DNA from: an uncultured Bacilli bacterium
Lineage (GTDB): Bacteria; Bacillota_I; Bacilli_A; RF39; UBA660
Length of the DNA: 64,000 nt
Assembly (NCBI GenBank): GCA_934101185.1
Contig: CAKOQD010000001.1
Span: forward strand, 25,681-89,680
Direction: 5' to 3'
Below, one piece after another: positions 37,208 through 42,019 of this stretch (positions are counted from its first letter, which is position 1; the number at the start of each line of letters is the position of its first letter). The position numbers and the translations under genes were made by a program. The notes beneath the pieces are model-generated. The model saw nothing but the letters and a program-made list of their open reading frames with translations. It searched no databases and was not told the origin of the DNA.

Positions 37208-37675
37208 ATTACAAAAAAAGAGACCAAAGTCTCATAATAACTTAATATGGAGCGATTGATTAAGTTATTTACAACTTAACTATCACAATTAGGAATTAAT
37301 ACAATTTGTATCAATTTCTATATACATCTTACCACAATTTTATTTAAATTTTTATTAATTATGTTAAATTGGTCAAATTATATGATAAAATGGTATTGTA
37401 GGTGATAATAGATGAATTATAAATATCAAAGAAGACAAATATTATGAAAAAGATTAAAAGTTCCAAAATATATCTTAAATAAAGTATATAATTGCACTTT
37501 ATCTTTTAATGAGTTTATTGAATATCAATTAGATGATAAAATACCAACTTCTTGCATTATAGAATCTGATAGAAAAATTGTAGAAAAGTTTGGTATAGAT
37601 AAATGTAAAGATTTAGATTGGGAGTTAATTAACAAAAGAATATATGATAATAACATTAGATTTAGAGATATATTA

Positions 37676-40600
37676 ATGTCTATTGATCCACAAACACAAG
37701 ATATTAATCGTGCTTTATATGAACTAGTAAAGAATCAAATAAAACCAAGTGATTATTCACTAAAAATGGCTGAAATATATTCTGATAGATTGTTTGAAAT
37801 ACCTAAAATTGAAAATTATGATTATAATGAAATCAGATTAAGAGATATGAAAATAAACTTTAATGAAGGTAAAGTCAGTTTAAAAGAAATTGTCAGGAAT
37901 TGGGAATTATTTAAAGACAAAGATTTAAGTTATTGTTTATTAAATGATGAGAATAATAAAAATAATATTATAGATAGTTCATTAAAAAAATTTATGAATA
38001 ATTATGGTACATTAGCGCCTTTAATAGTAGAAAATAATGATATATATACATTTATTGATACCATTTCTAATACAACTTCTGACGAGGAAAAATATAATTA
38101 TTTAAAACAATTTACTGATGATATATTAAGCAATACTTATAGAAAATATGGAGATTACAGACCACCTATTGAACTAACAGATGAACAATTTAAAGAAATA
38201 TTTAAGTACTCATCAATGGAAGAATATTTAAAAGTATTTAATGAATATAGTGCAATACCTGTAATAGAAGAATTAAAAACATTACCCCAAGACTATATTT
38301 TCAATATGTCAATTCCGTTTCAAGAATTATTAAACTCTGATGTTTTATCTTTCATTGGCACATATGGATTAAAAAACATTGTTGATTTCGATAATGAATG
38401 TGGTCATTTCTTCACAAAAAATAATTGTGAAATGTTAAAGCTGATGGATGATATGTATTTACATTATTCAAATAATGAACATGATCCTAATAAAACAATC
38501 CATACAAAAAAGTATAAAGATGAAAATGGTAATTATATTGATAGACCATATACTAAAGATGAATTCTATGAAGCAATGAAAAGAATGATAATATATGGAC
38601 CTAGTGATTGGAATTATGTTGATAAAGCTCCAGATTATAGAGATATGACAGGAGAATTCAGAACTAGAAATACAGAGTTATTTATTTCAGAAGAAGCACC
38701 AGAAGATTTACAAAAAATGTTTTATACAAAGTCTATTACTCCTCGACTATTATTAGAGCATCCAGAATATATTCAATTCTTAAACGGAAAAGATTTAAGT
38801 TCATGTTTAAAAAATAGAGACATACAAGTCAAAGGCAGTAATGCATTAGATGGATATGAGAATATTTATAAATTCCTAGGTAATAAAACTGACTTTAATG
38901 GAGTTATGAATTTTATTACTGAATACAGTGATGTTTTAGATATTGTCTTCAATAAAAGAATACCAGGCTACTATCAATATGAGATAGAATTTTCAATTAA
39001 TGATGATATAGACCAAATTCAAAGCAAAATTCATGAAACTTTAAGAAAACTTATTATTGAAAAAAGATTGACTTATCCTACACATATTCCTAAGAATTTA
39101 AGCGAAAAATATCCAACTATGTTTTTAGATAAAAATGCACCTCAAGAATTACAAGAAGCTTTTTATAGTAGAACAATATCATCAGAGTTTATTTTGTCAA
39201 ATCCATCATATAGAGAATATTTAAAAAATGTTGATTTAGAGGTTTTATTTAAATATATGCCTGTAAACATTGCAAATGAAGAAGATAGATATGAACAAGT
39301 TAATTTAGTTAGTGGTATTAAACAAATATTCGGTTCAGATGATGCCTTTGATGTAATGTCTATATATGGAAAATATATTGAACAAGTATATGAGGCAAAT
39401 AACCTTAAAAACTTCTTATATAATCCAGAGTTTACGCAAGATGGTTTTCTTGATGAACTTGATAAAACCATATTACAGAATATTATTGATGGAAATATGA
39501 AGTACGATGAGAATATTCCCAGTCATTTCAAAAATAATAATCCAACTTTATTCTTAGGAGCAAATGTGCCACAAGAAATAAAAGATAAATTCTATAATAG
39601 AGAATTTACATTAAAAGATTTTAACGATAATCCAGAATTATTAAATATATTTGAAAATACGAATATAGCATGTGCTTTTTCAGAAAATATGTCTTGGATT
39701 ATTCCATTATTTAATGATTCTGAAAATTTTAAAACTGGAAACTATAATCGTATGAAAGTTATATCAGAATATTCTAAAATACAAGATGTTGAACTTCAAA
39801 AAGAATTTAAAAAATATGTTATAGAATTTAAAACTAACATTAATGTAGAAAAAATAGAATATGTTTCAGAAGTTTTGTCAAGACTTTCATTATCAAATTC
39901 AAGTGAAATATTTACATTTAGAAAAGAACTTGCTACGCAAATATTAAAATCTAATAATCCTTTAGAAAGCTTAGGTAAGATCGAAGATATATTTATAAGA
40001 AATAATATTCCAACAGTTGGTAAAATATATTCTTGCTTTGAAATACTACATCCAGATTTTCAAGGTTTTAATTTTGAAAGTTCTATGGTTTCACCAGTAT
40101 TAAAAAAGTCATCAACAAAAAATAAAAAAATAATAGTTTTTTCAGATTTAATAAAATGTTCTTTCGGATCCAATAATAAGTCTGTTAATGCATATTTAAA
40201 AAATATAGAGTTTGGTTCTAGTCTATATGAAAGTATAAAAACTGGACAAATTCAATTTGATACACTTGGTGAAATAGAAAAAAGAAAATTAATAATATTT
40301 AGCAATCATTTGGCAACATTATATAATAATACAATGAAAGCAAAAATGGGAAACGAAATGTTTATATCTAGTGGAGATGTTTTAAATGATATTTTAGAAC
40401 TTTCAAAAAAACTCTCTCCAGATGGGACATTAGATTATAATTTAGCAGATAGAGTTATTCGAATGTTCTGTGGATTTACTGGAATTGACACATTAGAACA
40501 AGCTAAAGAATTTATTGAACAAAAAGTTAAAACAGCTGATTATAGAAATAGACATGCTTCTAACTCAGATATGATATTAGAGCAAGGAGATTTCATTAAA

Positions 40601-42019
40601 GGAATTGGCGATATTAAATATTTAAGAAATATTTTACAAAATGGTAGTGTTGCAAAAGAGTACTTAGGTTCAAGTGCTACTAGTGATGCAACTCCACTTG
40701 ATACTGATATTTCAATGATAATGAGTTCAGACGGAACAATAAGTGAAAAAATGGGTGCAACTATGGCTTCAAGTTATGGGCCTATATGGTTTGTACTTAA
40801 AAATGATGATAGATTTATGACTACTAGAACTAGTAGTGAAACATTAGAAGCAAAAAGAGATATATCCAAAATGGAGGTATTTTATACAGGAATTTTAGGA
40901 CAAGGACATTATGGAATTAGAACAGGTTTTGCTTCAAGTGAAATTAATTATATTGTTATGGAAAACTATGATCCAAGAGTTGGATTAGAAATAGCAATGA
41001 ATGGCTTTTACATTCCTGTAGCTAATAAAGAAGGTAAAATTGTATTTACTCCAAAAGATTATGATGAATTAAGAACTAAAATGAGTGGTTTATCGTATTT
41101 TGATGAGAATAATTATACTTTCTCTGAAAATCTAATTACAGAAGAAACAGAATATTTTGCCGAGCAAATAGAACAAAGCAATTATGAAGTTCAAGCAAAA
41201 AGAGAAAAGATTAATAGTATTATTAAAAAATCTCTTGAAGAATTAGGATTGCATTTAAAAACTAATATTGATGGTAATTTAACCGAAGGATTTGTAGAAT
41301 TAATTGATACTGGTTCAACTGGAAGAGGAACAAATAAACCTGGCGATGGGGATTTTGATTTTATGATGAGATTGGATAAAATAATATTATCAAACCCTTC
41401 TAGACTAAATGAATTAAAACAAACTATATTAAGAAATCTTGGTAGAGAAAATTCCTCTGAATTAACAGGAACTGGAGATTTTAGATTAAAGAGTGTTCAA
41501 ATAGATAGCAATACAAGTGTAGATATTGATATTACATTTACTGAAAAAACAGATAAAGTATCGTATTCTACTGATATGGCATTACAAGATAGACTTGCTA
41601 CTATTCAAAGAAATGACCCTGAAAAATATAAATATGTTGTTGCCAATATATTATTAGCTAAACAAGTACTTAAAAAAGCCGAAGCATATAAACCTAATCG
41701 TGGTGAAATTCCTCAAGGTGGTTTAGGTGGAGTTGGAATCGAAAATTGGATTCTTCAAAATGGTGGTTCATTCATTGATGCTGCTAAAAGTTTTGTTGAG
41801 TCTGCTAATGGAAAAAGTTTTTCAGAATTTCAATCAACTTACCAAATATGGGATTTTGGAGAAAATCATCTAGCCGAAAGAAGAGGATTATATTCACATG
41901 ATAATTTTGTTTCAAATAATATGAGTGAAGCAGGATATCAAAAAATGGTTCAAGCTTTAAAAGAATATTTAAAATCTATGGAGATTTCACAAATAGATAC
42001 TGAAACTATAAAACGATGA
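37676..42019 (+). CDS. giant (1447-aa or longer) cytoplasmic repeat protein with C-terminal Pol-beta-superfamily nucleotidyltransferase domain
   Basis: 'DTGSTGRGTNKPGDGDFDFMMRLD ... SVDIDITF' is the NTase G[ST]x9-13DxD signature plus a third Asp. Three units of about 145 aa repeat ('AP(E/Q)(D/E)LQ..FY(T/S)(K/R)(S/T)I...'). The frame is open upstream to 37448, and an RBS plus ATG lie at 37412 in the same frame, interrupted only by TGA at 37445. Confidence 0.8.
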   Translation: MSIDPQTQDINRALYELVKNQIKPSDYSLKMAEIYSDRLFEIPKIENYDYNEIRLRDMKINFNEGKVSLKEIVRNWELFKDKDLSYCLLNDENNKNNIIDSSLKKFMNNYGTLAPLIVENNDIYTFIDTISNTTSDEEKYNYLKQFTDDILSNTYRKYGDYRPPIELTDEQFKEIFKYSSMEEYLKVFNEYSAIPVIEELKTLPQDYIFNMSIPFQELLNSDVLSFIGTYGLKNIVDFDNECGHFFTKNNCEMLKLMDDMYLHYSNNEHDPNKTIHTKKYKDENGNYIDRPYTKDEFYEAMKRMIIYGPSDWNYVDKAPDYRDMTGEFRTRNTELFISEEAPEDLQKMFYTKSITPRLLLEHPEYIQFLNGKDLSSCLKNRDIQVKGSNALDGYENIYKFLGNKTDFNGVMNFITEYSDVLDIVFNKRIPGYYQYEIEFSINDDIDQIQSKIHETLRKLIIEKRLTYPTHIPKNLSEKYPTMFLDKNAPQELQEAFYSRTISSEFILSNPSYREYLKNVDLEVLFKYMPVNIANEEDRYEQVNLVSGIKQIFGSDDAFDVMSIYGKYIEQVYEANNLKNFLYNPEFTQDGFLDELDKTILQNIIDGNMKYDENIPSHFKNNNPTLFLGANVPQEIKDKFYNREFTLKDFNDNPELLNIFENTNIACAFSENMSWIIPLFNDSENFKTGNYNRMKVISEYSKIQDVELQKEFKKYVIEFKTNINVEKIEYVSEVLSRLSLSNSSEIFTFRKELATQILKSNNPLESLGKIEDIFIRNNIPTVGKIYSCFEILHPDFQGFNFESSMVSPVLKKSSTKNKKIIVFSDLIKCSFGSNNKSVNAYLKNIEFGSSLYESIKTGQIQFDTLGEIEKRKLIIFSNHLATLYNNTMKAKMGNEMFISSGDVLNDILELSKKLSPDGTLDYNLADRVIRMFCGFTGIDTLEQAKEFIEQKVKTADYRNRHASNSDMILEQGDFIKGIGDIKYLRNILQNGSVAKEYLGSSATSDATPLDTDISMIMSSDGTISEKMGATMASSYGPIWFVLKNDDRFMTTRTSSETLEAKRDISKMEVFYTGILGQGHYGIRTGFASSEINYIVMENYDPRVGLEIAMNGFYIPVANKEGKIVFTPKDYDELRTKMSGLSYFDENNYTFSENLITEETEYFAEQIEQSNYEVQAKREKINSIIKKSLEELGLHLKTNIDGNLTEGFVELIDTGSTGRGTNKPGDGDFDFMMRLDKIILSNPSRLNELKQTILRNLGRENSSELTGTGDFRLKSVQIDSNTSVDIDITFTEKTDKVSYSTDMALQDRLATIQRNDPEKYKYVVANILLAKQVLKKAEAYKPNRGEIPQGGLGGVGIENWILQNGGSFIDAAKSFVESANGKSFSEFQSTYQIWDFGENHLAERRGLYSHDNFVSNNMSEAGYQKMVQALKEYLKSMEISQIDTETIKR

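What the first reader, a model, noticed from the sequence alone, without database searches (positions are those of the whole stretch)
37412..42019. Giant cytoplasmic protein: about 1150 aa of novel repeats capped by a Pol-beta nucleotidyltransferase domain, downstream of a Fic gene
The C-terminal roughly 300 aa carry a clear minimal NTase signature (GSTGRGTNKPGDGDFDF, with a third Asp in SVDIDITF). A helical segment follows ('AKQVLKKAEAYKPNRGEIPQGGLGGVGIENWILQNGGSF'). It reminds me of the region after the catalytic core in class I (archaeal-type) CCA-adding and kanamycin-NTase-like enzymes.

The N-terminal three quarters match nothing I recognise. They contain at least three units of about 145 aa, marked by '(Y)P(T)..(F)L...AP(E/Q)(D/E)LQ..FY..(S/T)I......L..P.Y..(F/Y)L' at about nt 38690, 39128 and 39556. 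There is no signal peptide. The gene follows fic on the same strand, inside a tRNA-bounded segment. This places two different nucleotidyl-transferring enzymes side by side, which may be a toxin, defence or effector-like module.
Basis: partly seen in the sequence, partly recalled or inferred. Interest (0 to 1): 0.6.

Follow-up and report, generated by a model that had tools for sequence, protein, structure and literature searches.

The report
Giant ART-nucleotidyltransferase protein, interrupted copy
This 4.6-kb gene of an uncultured 1-Mb gut Bacilli bacterium belongs to a very large, unnamed family of giant cytoplasmic proteins that join a helical domain, an ADP-ribosyltransferase-like domain and an intact nucleotidyltransferase; the neighbouring fic gene is a chance neighbour, and this copy carries a stop codon at codon 12.

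Summary
The gene, the Pol-beta nucleotidyltransferase (NTase) signature and the three ~145-aa repeats are real. The frame opened at 37412 is broken by TGA at 37445-37447. The genome uses TGA as a stop, and the uninterrupted ORF is 37676-42019.

The protein is not an orphan. Its last ~760 aa match 1232 clusters (50% identity) from uncultured gut Bacilli, Clostridia and Saccharibacteria. This core is a helical domain, then an ADP-ribosyltransferase (ART)-fold domain, then the NTase. The ART-fold domain is closest to DarT and Tpt1. The NTase is closest to CdnC, archaeal CCA-adding enzyme and TUTases. The NTase acidic triad is conserved.

No Pfam, NCBIfam, PADLOC, PHROG or PDB sequence model matches, and four literature searches found no description.

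The fic + NTase "module" is refuted: fic is adjacent only in this species (0 of 78 loci from other genomes), and no neighbour is conserved.

The gene is accessory:
- 19 of 199 other species genomes sampled from the order carry it.
- A frameshifted copy rides a Tn4451-like transposon in Clostridia.
- Two independent early-stop alleles occur within this species.

My best guess, unproven, is a cytoplasmic conflict-type enzyme acting on nucleic-acid ends. This scan has already met the family on at least six other genomes.

The parts
37412..42019 (+). Whole giant gene as in intact relatives (1535 codons plus stop). In this window it is interrupted at codon 12.
   Evidence: Translation. The 99%-identical intact 1535-aa homolog P0003 and locus L001.
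37445..37447 (+). In-frame TGA (codon 12). The change TTTGGA to TTATGA is two adjacent substitutions relative to the intact allele.
   Evidence: Alignment with L001. The same allele occurs in the independent sample L087. TGA is a stop in this genome.
37676..42019 (+). Longest uninterrupted ORF (1447 aa, P0001), from the first in-frame ATG/GTG/TTG after the TGA (Met89 of the full protein).
   Evidence: Gene callers recorded this 1447-aa product on 6 contigs.
38645..39739 (+). Three family-specific repeat units. Their motif segments are residues 412-477, 559-627 and 702-770, with a period of ~145 aa. Consensus: IPxEFKEKYPxLFLxxxAPEELKxKFYxRxLTxxDLxxNPEYLxYL.
   Evidence: Self-BLAST E = 1.6e-16. 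Motif HMM hits at 5e-23 to 1e-27. Copy number is 0-9 in relatives, and P0004 and P0005 have 4.
39740..40561 (+). Conserved all-helical domain, the first part of the family core (residues 777-1050). It is basic (pI 8.7), with conserved motifs SNSSE, P.VGK and FSDL...SNN. No structural match was found.
   Evidence: AF2 pLDDT ~90. Conservation. Present in the order hel-mid-nt in 141 of 148 representatives. pI.
40562..41149 (+). ART-fold domain (residues 1051-1246). Conserved GDF-K1063-G, D.TPLD1097.D, K.E1155.F, H1166-YGIRTGF and NGFYIP.
   Evidence: AF2 of the domain alone: pLDDT 88. Foldseek: DarT1 8baq E = 2.5e-3, prob 0.99; Thermus DarT prob 0.96; yeast Tpt1 7yw4 prob 0.98, TM 0.59. Lower ranks are dominated by ART toxins and PARP catalytic domains at low probability. 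Invariant residues.
41150..42016 (+). Long linker helix plus Pol-beta NTase head and helical neck (residues 1247-1535). G1301-S1302 at 41312-41317, D1314/D1316 at 41351-41359, D1373 at 41528-41530.
   Evidence: AF2. Foldseek: CdnC 6u7b 2.9e-3, archaeal CCA enzyme 1ueu 5e-3, Trf4, TUT4/7, GLD-2, CdnD/E, all with prob 0.85-1.0. Conservation.
36647..37183 (+). Neighbouring fic gene (NmFic-type). It is not part of the system and is listed because the finding invoked it.
   Evidence: NCBIfam NF046029 276 bits against a cut-off of 230. Pfam Fic. Adjacency is limited to this species. Two hairpins and a 228-nt spacer separate it from the giant gene.

Best explanation
Shown:
- The gene encodes a ~178-kDa cytoplasmic protein of a very large, unnamed family.
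- The family's invariant ~760-aa C-terminal core is a basic helical domain, then an ADP-ribosyltransferase-fold domain nearest to the nucleic-acid-modifying DarT/Tpt1 clade, then a Pol-beta NTase of the CCA-adding/TUTase/CD-NTase type whose catalytic residues are conserved.
- A lineage-variable N-terminal region precedes the core. Here it holds three ~145-aa repeats.
- The gene stands alone, is patchily distributed and moves horizontally.
- The fic neighbour is incidental.

Inferred:
- It works inside the cell as a conflict-type (defence or toxin-like) enzyme.
- The variable N-terminal repeats recognise a target or trigger.
- The conserved core then modifies a nucleic-acid end, most likely RNA or tRNA, possibly DNA. 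It would do this by nucleotide addition, with the ART-like domain binding NAD+ or an ADP-ribose or phosphate-bearing end.
- The window's allele, with TGA at codon 12, is probably null or makes at most an N-terminally truncated product from Met89.
For: - Family size and core: 1232 clusters at E <= 1e-3. The order hel-mid-nt holds in 141 of 148 representatives.
- Confident models: pLDDT 90 and 88.
- Fold matches to NTases and to DarT/Tpt1.
- Conserved GS...DxD...D, plus many conserved polar residues in the ART-like domain.
- Conserved core with a variable N-terminus carrying 0-9 repeat motifs.
- Accessory pattern: 19 of 199 other species genomes sampled from the order, and neither of the two other species of the genus.
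- Gene context differs even among 80-90% identical orthologs.
- Some genomes carry 2-3 paralogs, in tandem in L072.
- A 75%-identical frameshifted copy sits inside a mobile element with a large serine recombinase, Mob_Pre and TnpV. That element is found in three different flanking contexts.
- Recurrent disruption within this species: TGA at codon 12 and, independently, at codon 28.
- The host has its own class II CCA enzyme, so the gene is not needed for housekeeping.
- No signal peptide or TM segment.
Against: - No substrate, activity or expression data exist.
- There is no match to any PADLOC defence model.
- No partner gene such as an antitoxin, effector or sensor is conserved.
- The ART relationship is structural only. 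TM scores are ~0.4-0.6. hhalign probabilities against DarT and Tpt1 profiles are 2.9% and 0.9%. The canonical beta-1 His is Lys here.
- The whole protein is acidic (pI 5.1), which is not typical of nucleic-acid binders. Only the helical domain is basic.
- Frequent disruption could equally mean the gene is simply dispensable.
Confidence: 0.4

Rival explanations
1. RNA-repair or tRNA-maintenance enzyme. A Tpt1-like domain would remove or ADP-ribosylate a 2'- or 5'-phosphate at a broken RNA end, and the CCA-like NTase would rebuild the 3' end, as a housekeeping or stress-repair function.
For: The mid domain matches yeast Tpt1 (prob 0.98, TM 0.59). The NTase matches archaeal CCA-adding enzyme. Tpt1 and template-independent NTases are both known parts of RNA repair (PMC9503650).
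Against: Only ~10% of species sampled in the order have it, and the two other species of the genus lack it. The gene is often interrupted or split and is transposon-borne in Clostridia. The genome already has a class II CCA enzyme. The NTase lacks the body and tail domains that hold tRNA in class I CCA enzymes. The Tpt1 profile match is not significant.
Confidence: 0.12
2. Nucleotide-signal synthase. The NTase would make a cyclic or linear oligonucleotide, as a CD-NTase or OAS does, after the N-terminal repeats sense a trigger. The fused ART-like domain would be the effector or regulator.
For: The top Foldseek hit is CdnC (6u7b, E = 2.9e-3, prob 1.0), with CdnD, CdnE and DncV also listed. There is a weak PADLOC oligonucleotide-cyclase hit, E = 0.022.
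Against: No CBASS-type effector, SAVED/STING receptor or Cap2/3 genes are nearby or conserved. The PADLOC hit is far below significance. RNA-end NTases match equally well.
Confidence: 0.12
3. Protein-modifying toxin or effector. AMPylation by the NTase and/or ADP-ribosylation by the ART domain would act on proteins of a competing or host cell, or of the producer's own cell.
For: ART toxins fill the lower ranks of the fold search. Some relatives of 3000-6800 aa also carry transglutaminase-like protease domains, reminiscent of multi-effector toxins. Host lineages are small-genome, probably host-dependent bacteria, including Saccharibacteria.
Against: There is no signal peptide, TM segment or recognisable secretion or trafficking domain. 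No immunity gene is conserved. The architecture is the reverse of polymorphic toxins, with the C-terminus conserved and the N-terminus variable. ART toxin matches have probabilities of only 0.04-0.3, against 0.9-0.99 for DarT and Tpt1.
Confidence: 0.15
4. One reading: fic and the giant gene form one toxin/defence module of two nucleotidyl-transferring enzymes.
For: They are adjacent on the same strand in the window and in all same-species contigs seen.
Against: fic is absent next to the gene in 78 of 78 loci from other genomes. Hairpins and a 228-nt spacer separate the two genes. The Fic protein is an NmFic-type equivalog, a class that carries its own inhibitory helix (for the match; the class property is established knowledge).
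Confidence: 0.03

Closest known systems
Archaeal class I CCA-adding enzyme (A. fulgidus, PDB 1ueu), head and neck domains
   Same: Both have GS...DxD plus a third Asp. Both have a helical neck with a G-(F/L)-(S/G)-G...E..(L/W)(I/V)...G-S-F motif; the CCA-enzyme form of that motif is from memory. Foldseek prob 1.0 over 309 columns.
   Different: No sequence-level match. The tRNA-binding body and tail domains are missing. The domain is embedded at the end of a 1535-aa protein. The gene is accessory, not essential, and the host has a class II CCA enzyme.
CD-NTases of CBASS (CdnC 6u7b, CdnD 6p8j, CdnE 6e0n)
   Same: Best overall fold match (E = 2.9e-3, prob 1.0) and the same catalytic triad layout.
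   Different: No CBASS operon partners. No significant PADLOC match. About five times larger, with unrelated extra domains.
Terminal uridylyl / non-canonical poly(A) polymerases (Trf4 3nyb, TUT4 2q0d, TUT7 5w0o, GLD-2 6lbk)
   Same: Bilobed NTase plus helical domain; prob 0.85-0.98.
   Different: Those are eukaryotic RNA-tailing enzymes. There is no sequence similarity and no recognisable nucleotide-recognition motif was tested.
DarT (DNA ADP-ribosyltransferase toxin of DarTG) and Tpt1/KptA (RNA 2'-phosphotransferase)
   Same: ART fold. These are the top matches of the isolated mid domain, with prob 0.94-0.99. The beta-1/alpha-1 element aligns in the same register in both profile comparisons. 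An invariant Glu on a strand (K-x-E-x-F) resembles DarT's A-E-V-L by eye; this is inference.
   Different: Profile-profile probabilities are below 3%. The beta-1 His is Lys1063. There is no DarG or macro partner anywhere in the genome. The domain is fused between two other domains.
Polyvalent proteins of phages and conjugative elements (Iyer et al. 2017, cited in PMC9503650)
   Same: Giant multi-enzyme proteins that often include ARTs and are linked to genetic conflict. One copy of this gene is cargo of a mobilisable transposon.
   Different: No relative was found in 50,697 phage records, 72,556 plasmids or IMG/VR. No LPD or other Pfam domains typical of polyvalent proteins were found.

Membership tests
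Pol-beta nucleotidyltransferase superfamily | hG[GS]-x9-13-Dh[DE]h motif | tested here: met
   G1301-S1302, 11 residues, then D1314-F-D1316. G and S are invariant and the two Asp are conserved in >=90% of 81 relatives and >=95% of 141 representatives.
Pol-beta nucleotidyltransferase superfamily | Third catalytic carboxylate on a neighbouring strand, and the alpha-beta NTase fold | tested here: met
   D1373 in DIDITF is >=90% conserved. The AF2 model matches solved NTases with prob up to 1.0. One relative passes the Pfam NTP_transf_2 cut-off; the window protein scores only E = 0.098.
Class I (archaeal) CCA-adding enzyme | Head-neck-body-tail architecture with tRNA-binding body and tail; ~440-aa stand-alone essential enzyme | tested here: not met
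   Only head plus neck (~290 aa) is present at the C-terminus. Distribution is patchy. The host has a class II CCA enzyme. No sequence match to PDB.
CD-NTase / CBASS | CD-NTase gene in an operon with a nucleotide-activated effector, with or without Cap2/3 or HORMA/TRIP13 | tested here: not met
   Neighbours are fic, tRNAs, PPDK and cell-wall hydrolases. No neighbour is conserved in 78 loci. PADLOC gives only E = 0.022.
ADP-ribosyltransferase superfamily (DarT/Tpt1 clade) | ART split beta-sheet fold | tested here: met
   Foldseek of the isolated domain: DarT1 E = 2.5e-3, prob 0.99; Tpt1 prob 0.98, TM 0.59. Most of the listed matches are ARTs.
ADP-ribosyltransferase superfamily (DarT/Tpt1 clade) | Catalytic/NAD+ motif (H-Y-E or R-S-E; H-G-T on beta-1 in Tpt1 and PARP) | tested here: inconclusive
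   Beta-1 reads F-I-K1063-G-I, with Lys in place of His. An invariant E1155 lies on a strand, but its equivalence to the catalytic Glu could not be checked because no coordinates or superposition were available.
ADP-ribosyltransferase superfamily (DarT/Tpt1 clade) | Detectable sequence/profile homology | tested here: not met
   No Pfam hit. hhalign against a DarT profile gives prob 2.9% and against a Tpt1 profile 0.9%. The PDB profile search found nothing.
DarTG-type toxin-antitoxin | Adjacent macro- or NADAR-domain antitoxin | tested here: not met
   No Macro domain was found anywhere in the 95%-complete genome. No conserved neighbour. NADAR was not searched.
   0 of 78 loci from other genomes have a fic homolog in the flanks, which extend up to 6 kb from the core match where the contig allows. 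Only same-species contigs do.
Polymorphic toxin systems | Conserved N-terminal secretion/trafficking domain, variable C-terminal toxin, downstream immunity gene | tested here: not met
   The polarity is reversed, with a variable N-terminus and a conserved C-terminus. No signal or TM segment. No conserved downstream ORF.

The most novel reading that the evidence does not exclude
The family is a new kind of single-polypeptide conflict enzyme. A copy-number-variable repeat array would act as a sensor for a fused pair of catalytic domains, one using NAD+ (ART-like) and one using NTPs (NTase). Together they would write an unusual mark on RNA or DNA ends, such as an ADP-ribose-linked or nucleotidylated terminus, or make a hybrid ADPr-nucleotide signal. 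Early-stop alleles would switch it off in part of the population.
Probability: 0.15. Interest if true: 0.8.

Novelty: new variant of a known kind. Interest (0 to 1): 0.45.

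Why it matters
More than a thousand sequence clusters of 0.5-6.8-kaa proteins share this helical-ART-NTase core. They come from uncultured gut Bacilli, Clostridia and Saccharibacteria. No Pfam, NCBIfam, PADLOC or PHROG model covers the core, and I found no paper on it.

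In genomes of only ~1 Mb, a 4.6-kb accessory gene that is kept, duplicated, moved on a transposon and repeatedly knocked out is likely to carry a strong, context-dependent fitness effect. Defining its substrate would add a new enzyme architecture to ART/NTase biology. It might also reveal a new conflict or RNA-modification system in a poorly understood part of the gut microbiota.

For this particular finding the practical message is more modest. The fic link is spurious, the copy here is interrupted, and the scan has already met the family several times.

Tried and rejected
1. Alternative genetic code (TGA = Trp or Gly) to explain the in-frame TGA. Rejected: TGA ends 89 of 643 long ORFs, and the two early TGA alleles replace Gly and Cys respectively.
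2. Assembly error for the TGA. Rejected: the same allele is present in an independent sample, L087.
3. Using window-versus-L087 dN/dS (0.10) as proof of selection after the stop. Rejected: all 64 differences lie in one 750-nt recombination tract, so the two are the same clone.
4. Sequence searches against Pfam, NCBIfam, PADLOC, PHROGs and PDB, with single sequences and with profiles. No significant hit to the window protein.
5. BFVD viral structure search, INPHARED phages, PLSDB plasmids and IMG/VR. No relatives.
6. A weak HEPN_RiboL-PSP hit (E = 0.035), also precomputed on a few relatives. Rejected: the apparent R-x4-H (RGLYSH) is not conserved across the family.
7. The DUF5776 hit (17.5-19 bits against a cut-off of 27). 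Below threshold, so ignored.
8. Conserved neighbours. The only recurrent 'clusters' were antisense shadow ORFs inside the gene and generic ABC ATPases at varying positions.
9. Promoter scan. Not above shuffled expectation.
10. Profile-profile tests against DarT and Tpt1. Not significant.

Full report
**1. What is in the sequence**

The window comes from a 1.0-Mb, 27% GC, 95%-complete genome. Close homologs come from MAGs labelled 'uncultured Bacilli bacterium' from human, rabbit and ruminant guts.

A long + strand frame ends at 42019. Read from the ATG at 37412, which has a good AGGTGA ribosome-binding site, it gives MNYKYQRRQIL, then TGA (37445-37447), then 1523 further sense codons.

The genome uses the standard code. 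TGA ends 89 of 643 ORFs of at least 200 aa. The first in-frame ATG/GTG/TTG after the stop is 37676, which gives a 1447-aa ORF.

The 99%-identical homolog P0003 (1535 aa) and its contig L001 read TTTGGA (Phe-Gly) where the window reads TTATGA. The surrounding 320 nt are otherwise identical.

There is no hydrophobic segment; the maximum 19-mer Kyte-Doolittle score is 0.85. The intact protein would be 178 kDa with pI 5.1.

**2. The stop is a real allele, and not the only one**

The 1447-aa product is on record from 6 contigs, and two further 1447-aa variants come from 4-5 and 1 contigs.

- L087, an independent sample, has the same codon-12 TGA. It differs from the window only by a 750-nt recombined tract inside the NTase region.
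- L085 and L086 (JGI and ENA samples) have an intact codon 12. They carry TGC-to-TGA at codon 28 plus three other amino-acid changes within the first 37 codons. The remaining 1447 codons are open.

Two independent early stops in one species, replacing Gly and Cys, argue against recoding. They point to recurrent loss or reduction of expression.

**3. Not an orphan**

A word-indexed search found 720 relatives, and the best 120 were 65-99% identical.

An exhaustive HMMER search with the last 1199 aa against 1.84 billion cluster representatives gave:
- 1232 clusters at E <= 1e-3;
- 750 clusters at E <= 1e-30;
- lengths from ~500 to 6114 aa.

What is shared is the last ~760 aa. I split this core into three HMMs: hel, mid and nt. 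In 141 of 148 representatives with a hit, they occur in exactly that order.

A scan of one genome per species found at least 455 genomes with a relative. These are mostly uncultured Bacilli, plus Clostridia, 'Tenericutes', Erysipelotrichaceae and Candidatus Saccharibacteria.

None of Pfam, NCBIfam, PADLOC, PHROGs or PDB sequences matches the window protein significantly. A few relatives reach the NTP_transf_2 threshold or carry a transglutaminase-like domain.

**4. Structure of the core**

AlphaFold2 on an 81-sequence alignment gave pLDDT 90 and pTM 0.89 for the 759-aa core.

| Region (core numbering) | Content |
|---|---|
| 1-274 | all-helical domain |
| 285-447 | alpha/beta domain |
| 468-501 | long helix |
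| 505-759 | NTase head plus helical neck |

Foldseek against PDB matched the NTase part to the following, at prob 0.85-1.0:
- CdnC (6u7b, E = 2.9e-3);
- archaeal CCA-adding enzyme (1ueu, E = 5e-3);
- Trf4, TUT4/7, GLD-2 and CdnD/E.

The Gly-Ser, D1314, D1316 and D1373 are invariant or nearly so.

Folded alone, the mid domain gave pLDDT 88. Its best matches were:
- DarT1 (8baq, E = 2.5e-3, prob 0.99);
- Thermus DarT (prob 0.96);
- yeast Tpt1 (prob 0.98, TM 0.59).

ART toxins and PARP catalytic domains follow at low probability. It is thus an ART-fold domain nearest to the clade that modifies nucleic acids.

Sequence support is weak. hhalign against DarT and Tpt1 profiles that I built from genomes gave probabilities of 2.9% and 0.9%. 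Both aligned only the alpha-1 helix that follows beta-1, in the same register. In that register, the His of the ART H-G-(S/T) element is Lys1063. Many polar residues are invariant (D1060, E1083, D1097, E1155, H1166, R1170), which suggests an active or ligand-binding site.

The helical domain has no structural match and is the only basic part (pI 8.7).

**5. The N-terminal region**

Self-comparison confirms three units with a ~145-aa period (E down to 1.6e-16). A motif HMM finds them at residues 412-477, 559-627 and 702-770.

Among 149 diverse representatives the motif occurs 0 to 9 times, and 62 have none. Close relatives P0004 and P0005 have four, one of them a near-exact tandem duplicate. 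The repeats are therefore a variable accessory array directly upstream of the invariant core.

**6. Context**

fic (36647-37183) is an NmFic-type equivalog, at 276 bits against a cut-off of 230. It is separated from the giant gene by a 228-nt spacer with two hairpins.

- A fic homolog lies beside the gene only in same-species contigs (L001, L085-87).
- It is found in 0 of 78 loci from other genomes.
- Clustering all flanking ORFs of those loci found no conserved neighbour.
- Even orthologs 80-90% identical have different flanking genes.
- A tRNA-Cys lies downstream in five close relatives.

Of 199 other species genomes sampled from the order (0.7-1.6 Mb), 19 have the core, in 17 of 98 genera. 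Neither of the two other species of this genus has it. Some genomes have 2-3 copies, and L072 has three in tandem.

In Clostridia, a 75%-identical copy is frameshifted into 1015-aa and 550-aa ORFs. It lies in an element with a large serine recombinase, Mob_Pre relaxase, Bro-N and TnpV. The element is nearly identical over 9.7 kb in three contigs, which then diverge. The 550-aa product is indexed in 323 blocks of the collection. The gene content resembles Tn4451-type mobilisable transposons; that comparison is from my own knowledge.

No relative occurs in 50,697 phage records, 72,556 plasmids or IMG/VR.

**7. Interpretation**

Shown:
- family membership and domain architecture;
- intact NTase residues;
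- accessory, mobile and frequently disrupted status;
- irrelevance of fic.

Inferred:
- An intracellular conflict-type role, in which the variable repeats select a target or trigger and the conserved core modifies a nucleic-acid end.

A housekeeping RNA-repair role is unlikely given the distribution and the host's own class II CCA enzyme. A DarTG-like toxin-antitoxin is unlikely without any macro domain in the genome. A CBASS-like role lacks partners. An exported toxin lacks export signals and immunity. None of these can be excluded without biochemistry.

**8. Relation to earlier notes of this scan**

After I had reached the ART + NTase reading, a look-up showed that follow-up agents had described the same family on at least six other genomes. 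Their conclusions were the same: a giant ART-NTase family in gut Bacilli and Saccharibacteria, with unrelated neighbours and sometimes a split gene.

What this window adds:
- the refutation of the fic link;
- the two independent early-stop alleles;
- the recombination tract in the NTase region;
- the transposon-borne frameshifted copy;
- the repeat-copy-number survey.

Four literature searches found no paper describing the family.

Noticed in passing
L085:1501-5844 and L086 (same species, other strains); corresponds to window 37493-37495: There is an independent early stop in the same gene: codon 28 TGC to TGA. Three further amino-acid changes (P18S, K24E, E37G) are crowded into the first 37 codons, while the other 1447 codons stay open.
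   Followed up: partly
window 41176-41925 versus L087:5001-5750: All 64 differences between the window and an otherwise identical 7.3-kb contig from another sample fall in one 750-nt tract inside the NTase domain (about 8.5% divergent, mostly synonymous). This is a clean homologous-recombination import.
   Followed up: partly
L081:1-9724 (also L082, L083): A Tn4451-like mobilisable element in Clostridia carries a large serine recombinase, Mob_Pre, Bro-N and TnpV. Its cargo is a frameshifted (1015 + 550 aa) copy of the giant gene. It sits in three different chromosomal contexts, and the 550-aa product is indexed in 323 blocks of the collection.
   Followed up: partly
window 36647-37183: The Fic protein matches the NmFic equivalog model above its cut-off and ends in SYYYET. 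This looks like the C-terminal (S/T)xxxE(G/N) inhibitory helix of class III Fic proteins with Thr in the last position.
   Followed up: partly
L072:2438-11635: Three tandem paralogs of the giant gene, each about 4.3 kb, lie in one uncultured Bacilli genome.
   Followed up: no
G147:C32:14362-15966 (open frame 6816 aa); P0263 (6114 aa), P0262 (4932 aa): Some family members are 5-7 kaa long. In several large members, including P0262 and P0263, the ART-NTase core is internal, not C-terminal. P0262 carries a transglutaminase-like (papain-fold) domain, and P0304 (3323 aa) has a sub-threshold match to the same family.
   Followed up: no
window 37220-37233 and 37185-37207: Two hairpins lie between fic and the giant gene. 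One is an AT-rich stem followed by a T-run just after the fic stop. The other is GAGACCAAAGTCTC, which scores as a terminator on the minus strand.
   Followed up: no
whole genome G000: No Macro domain was detected anywhere in the 95%-complete 1.0-Mb genome. A class II CCA-adding enzyme is present on contig C9 (3097-3465).
   Followed up: yes
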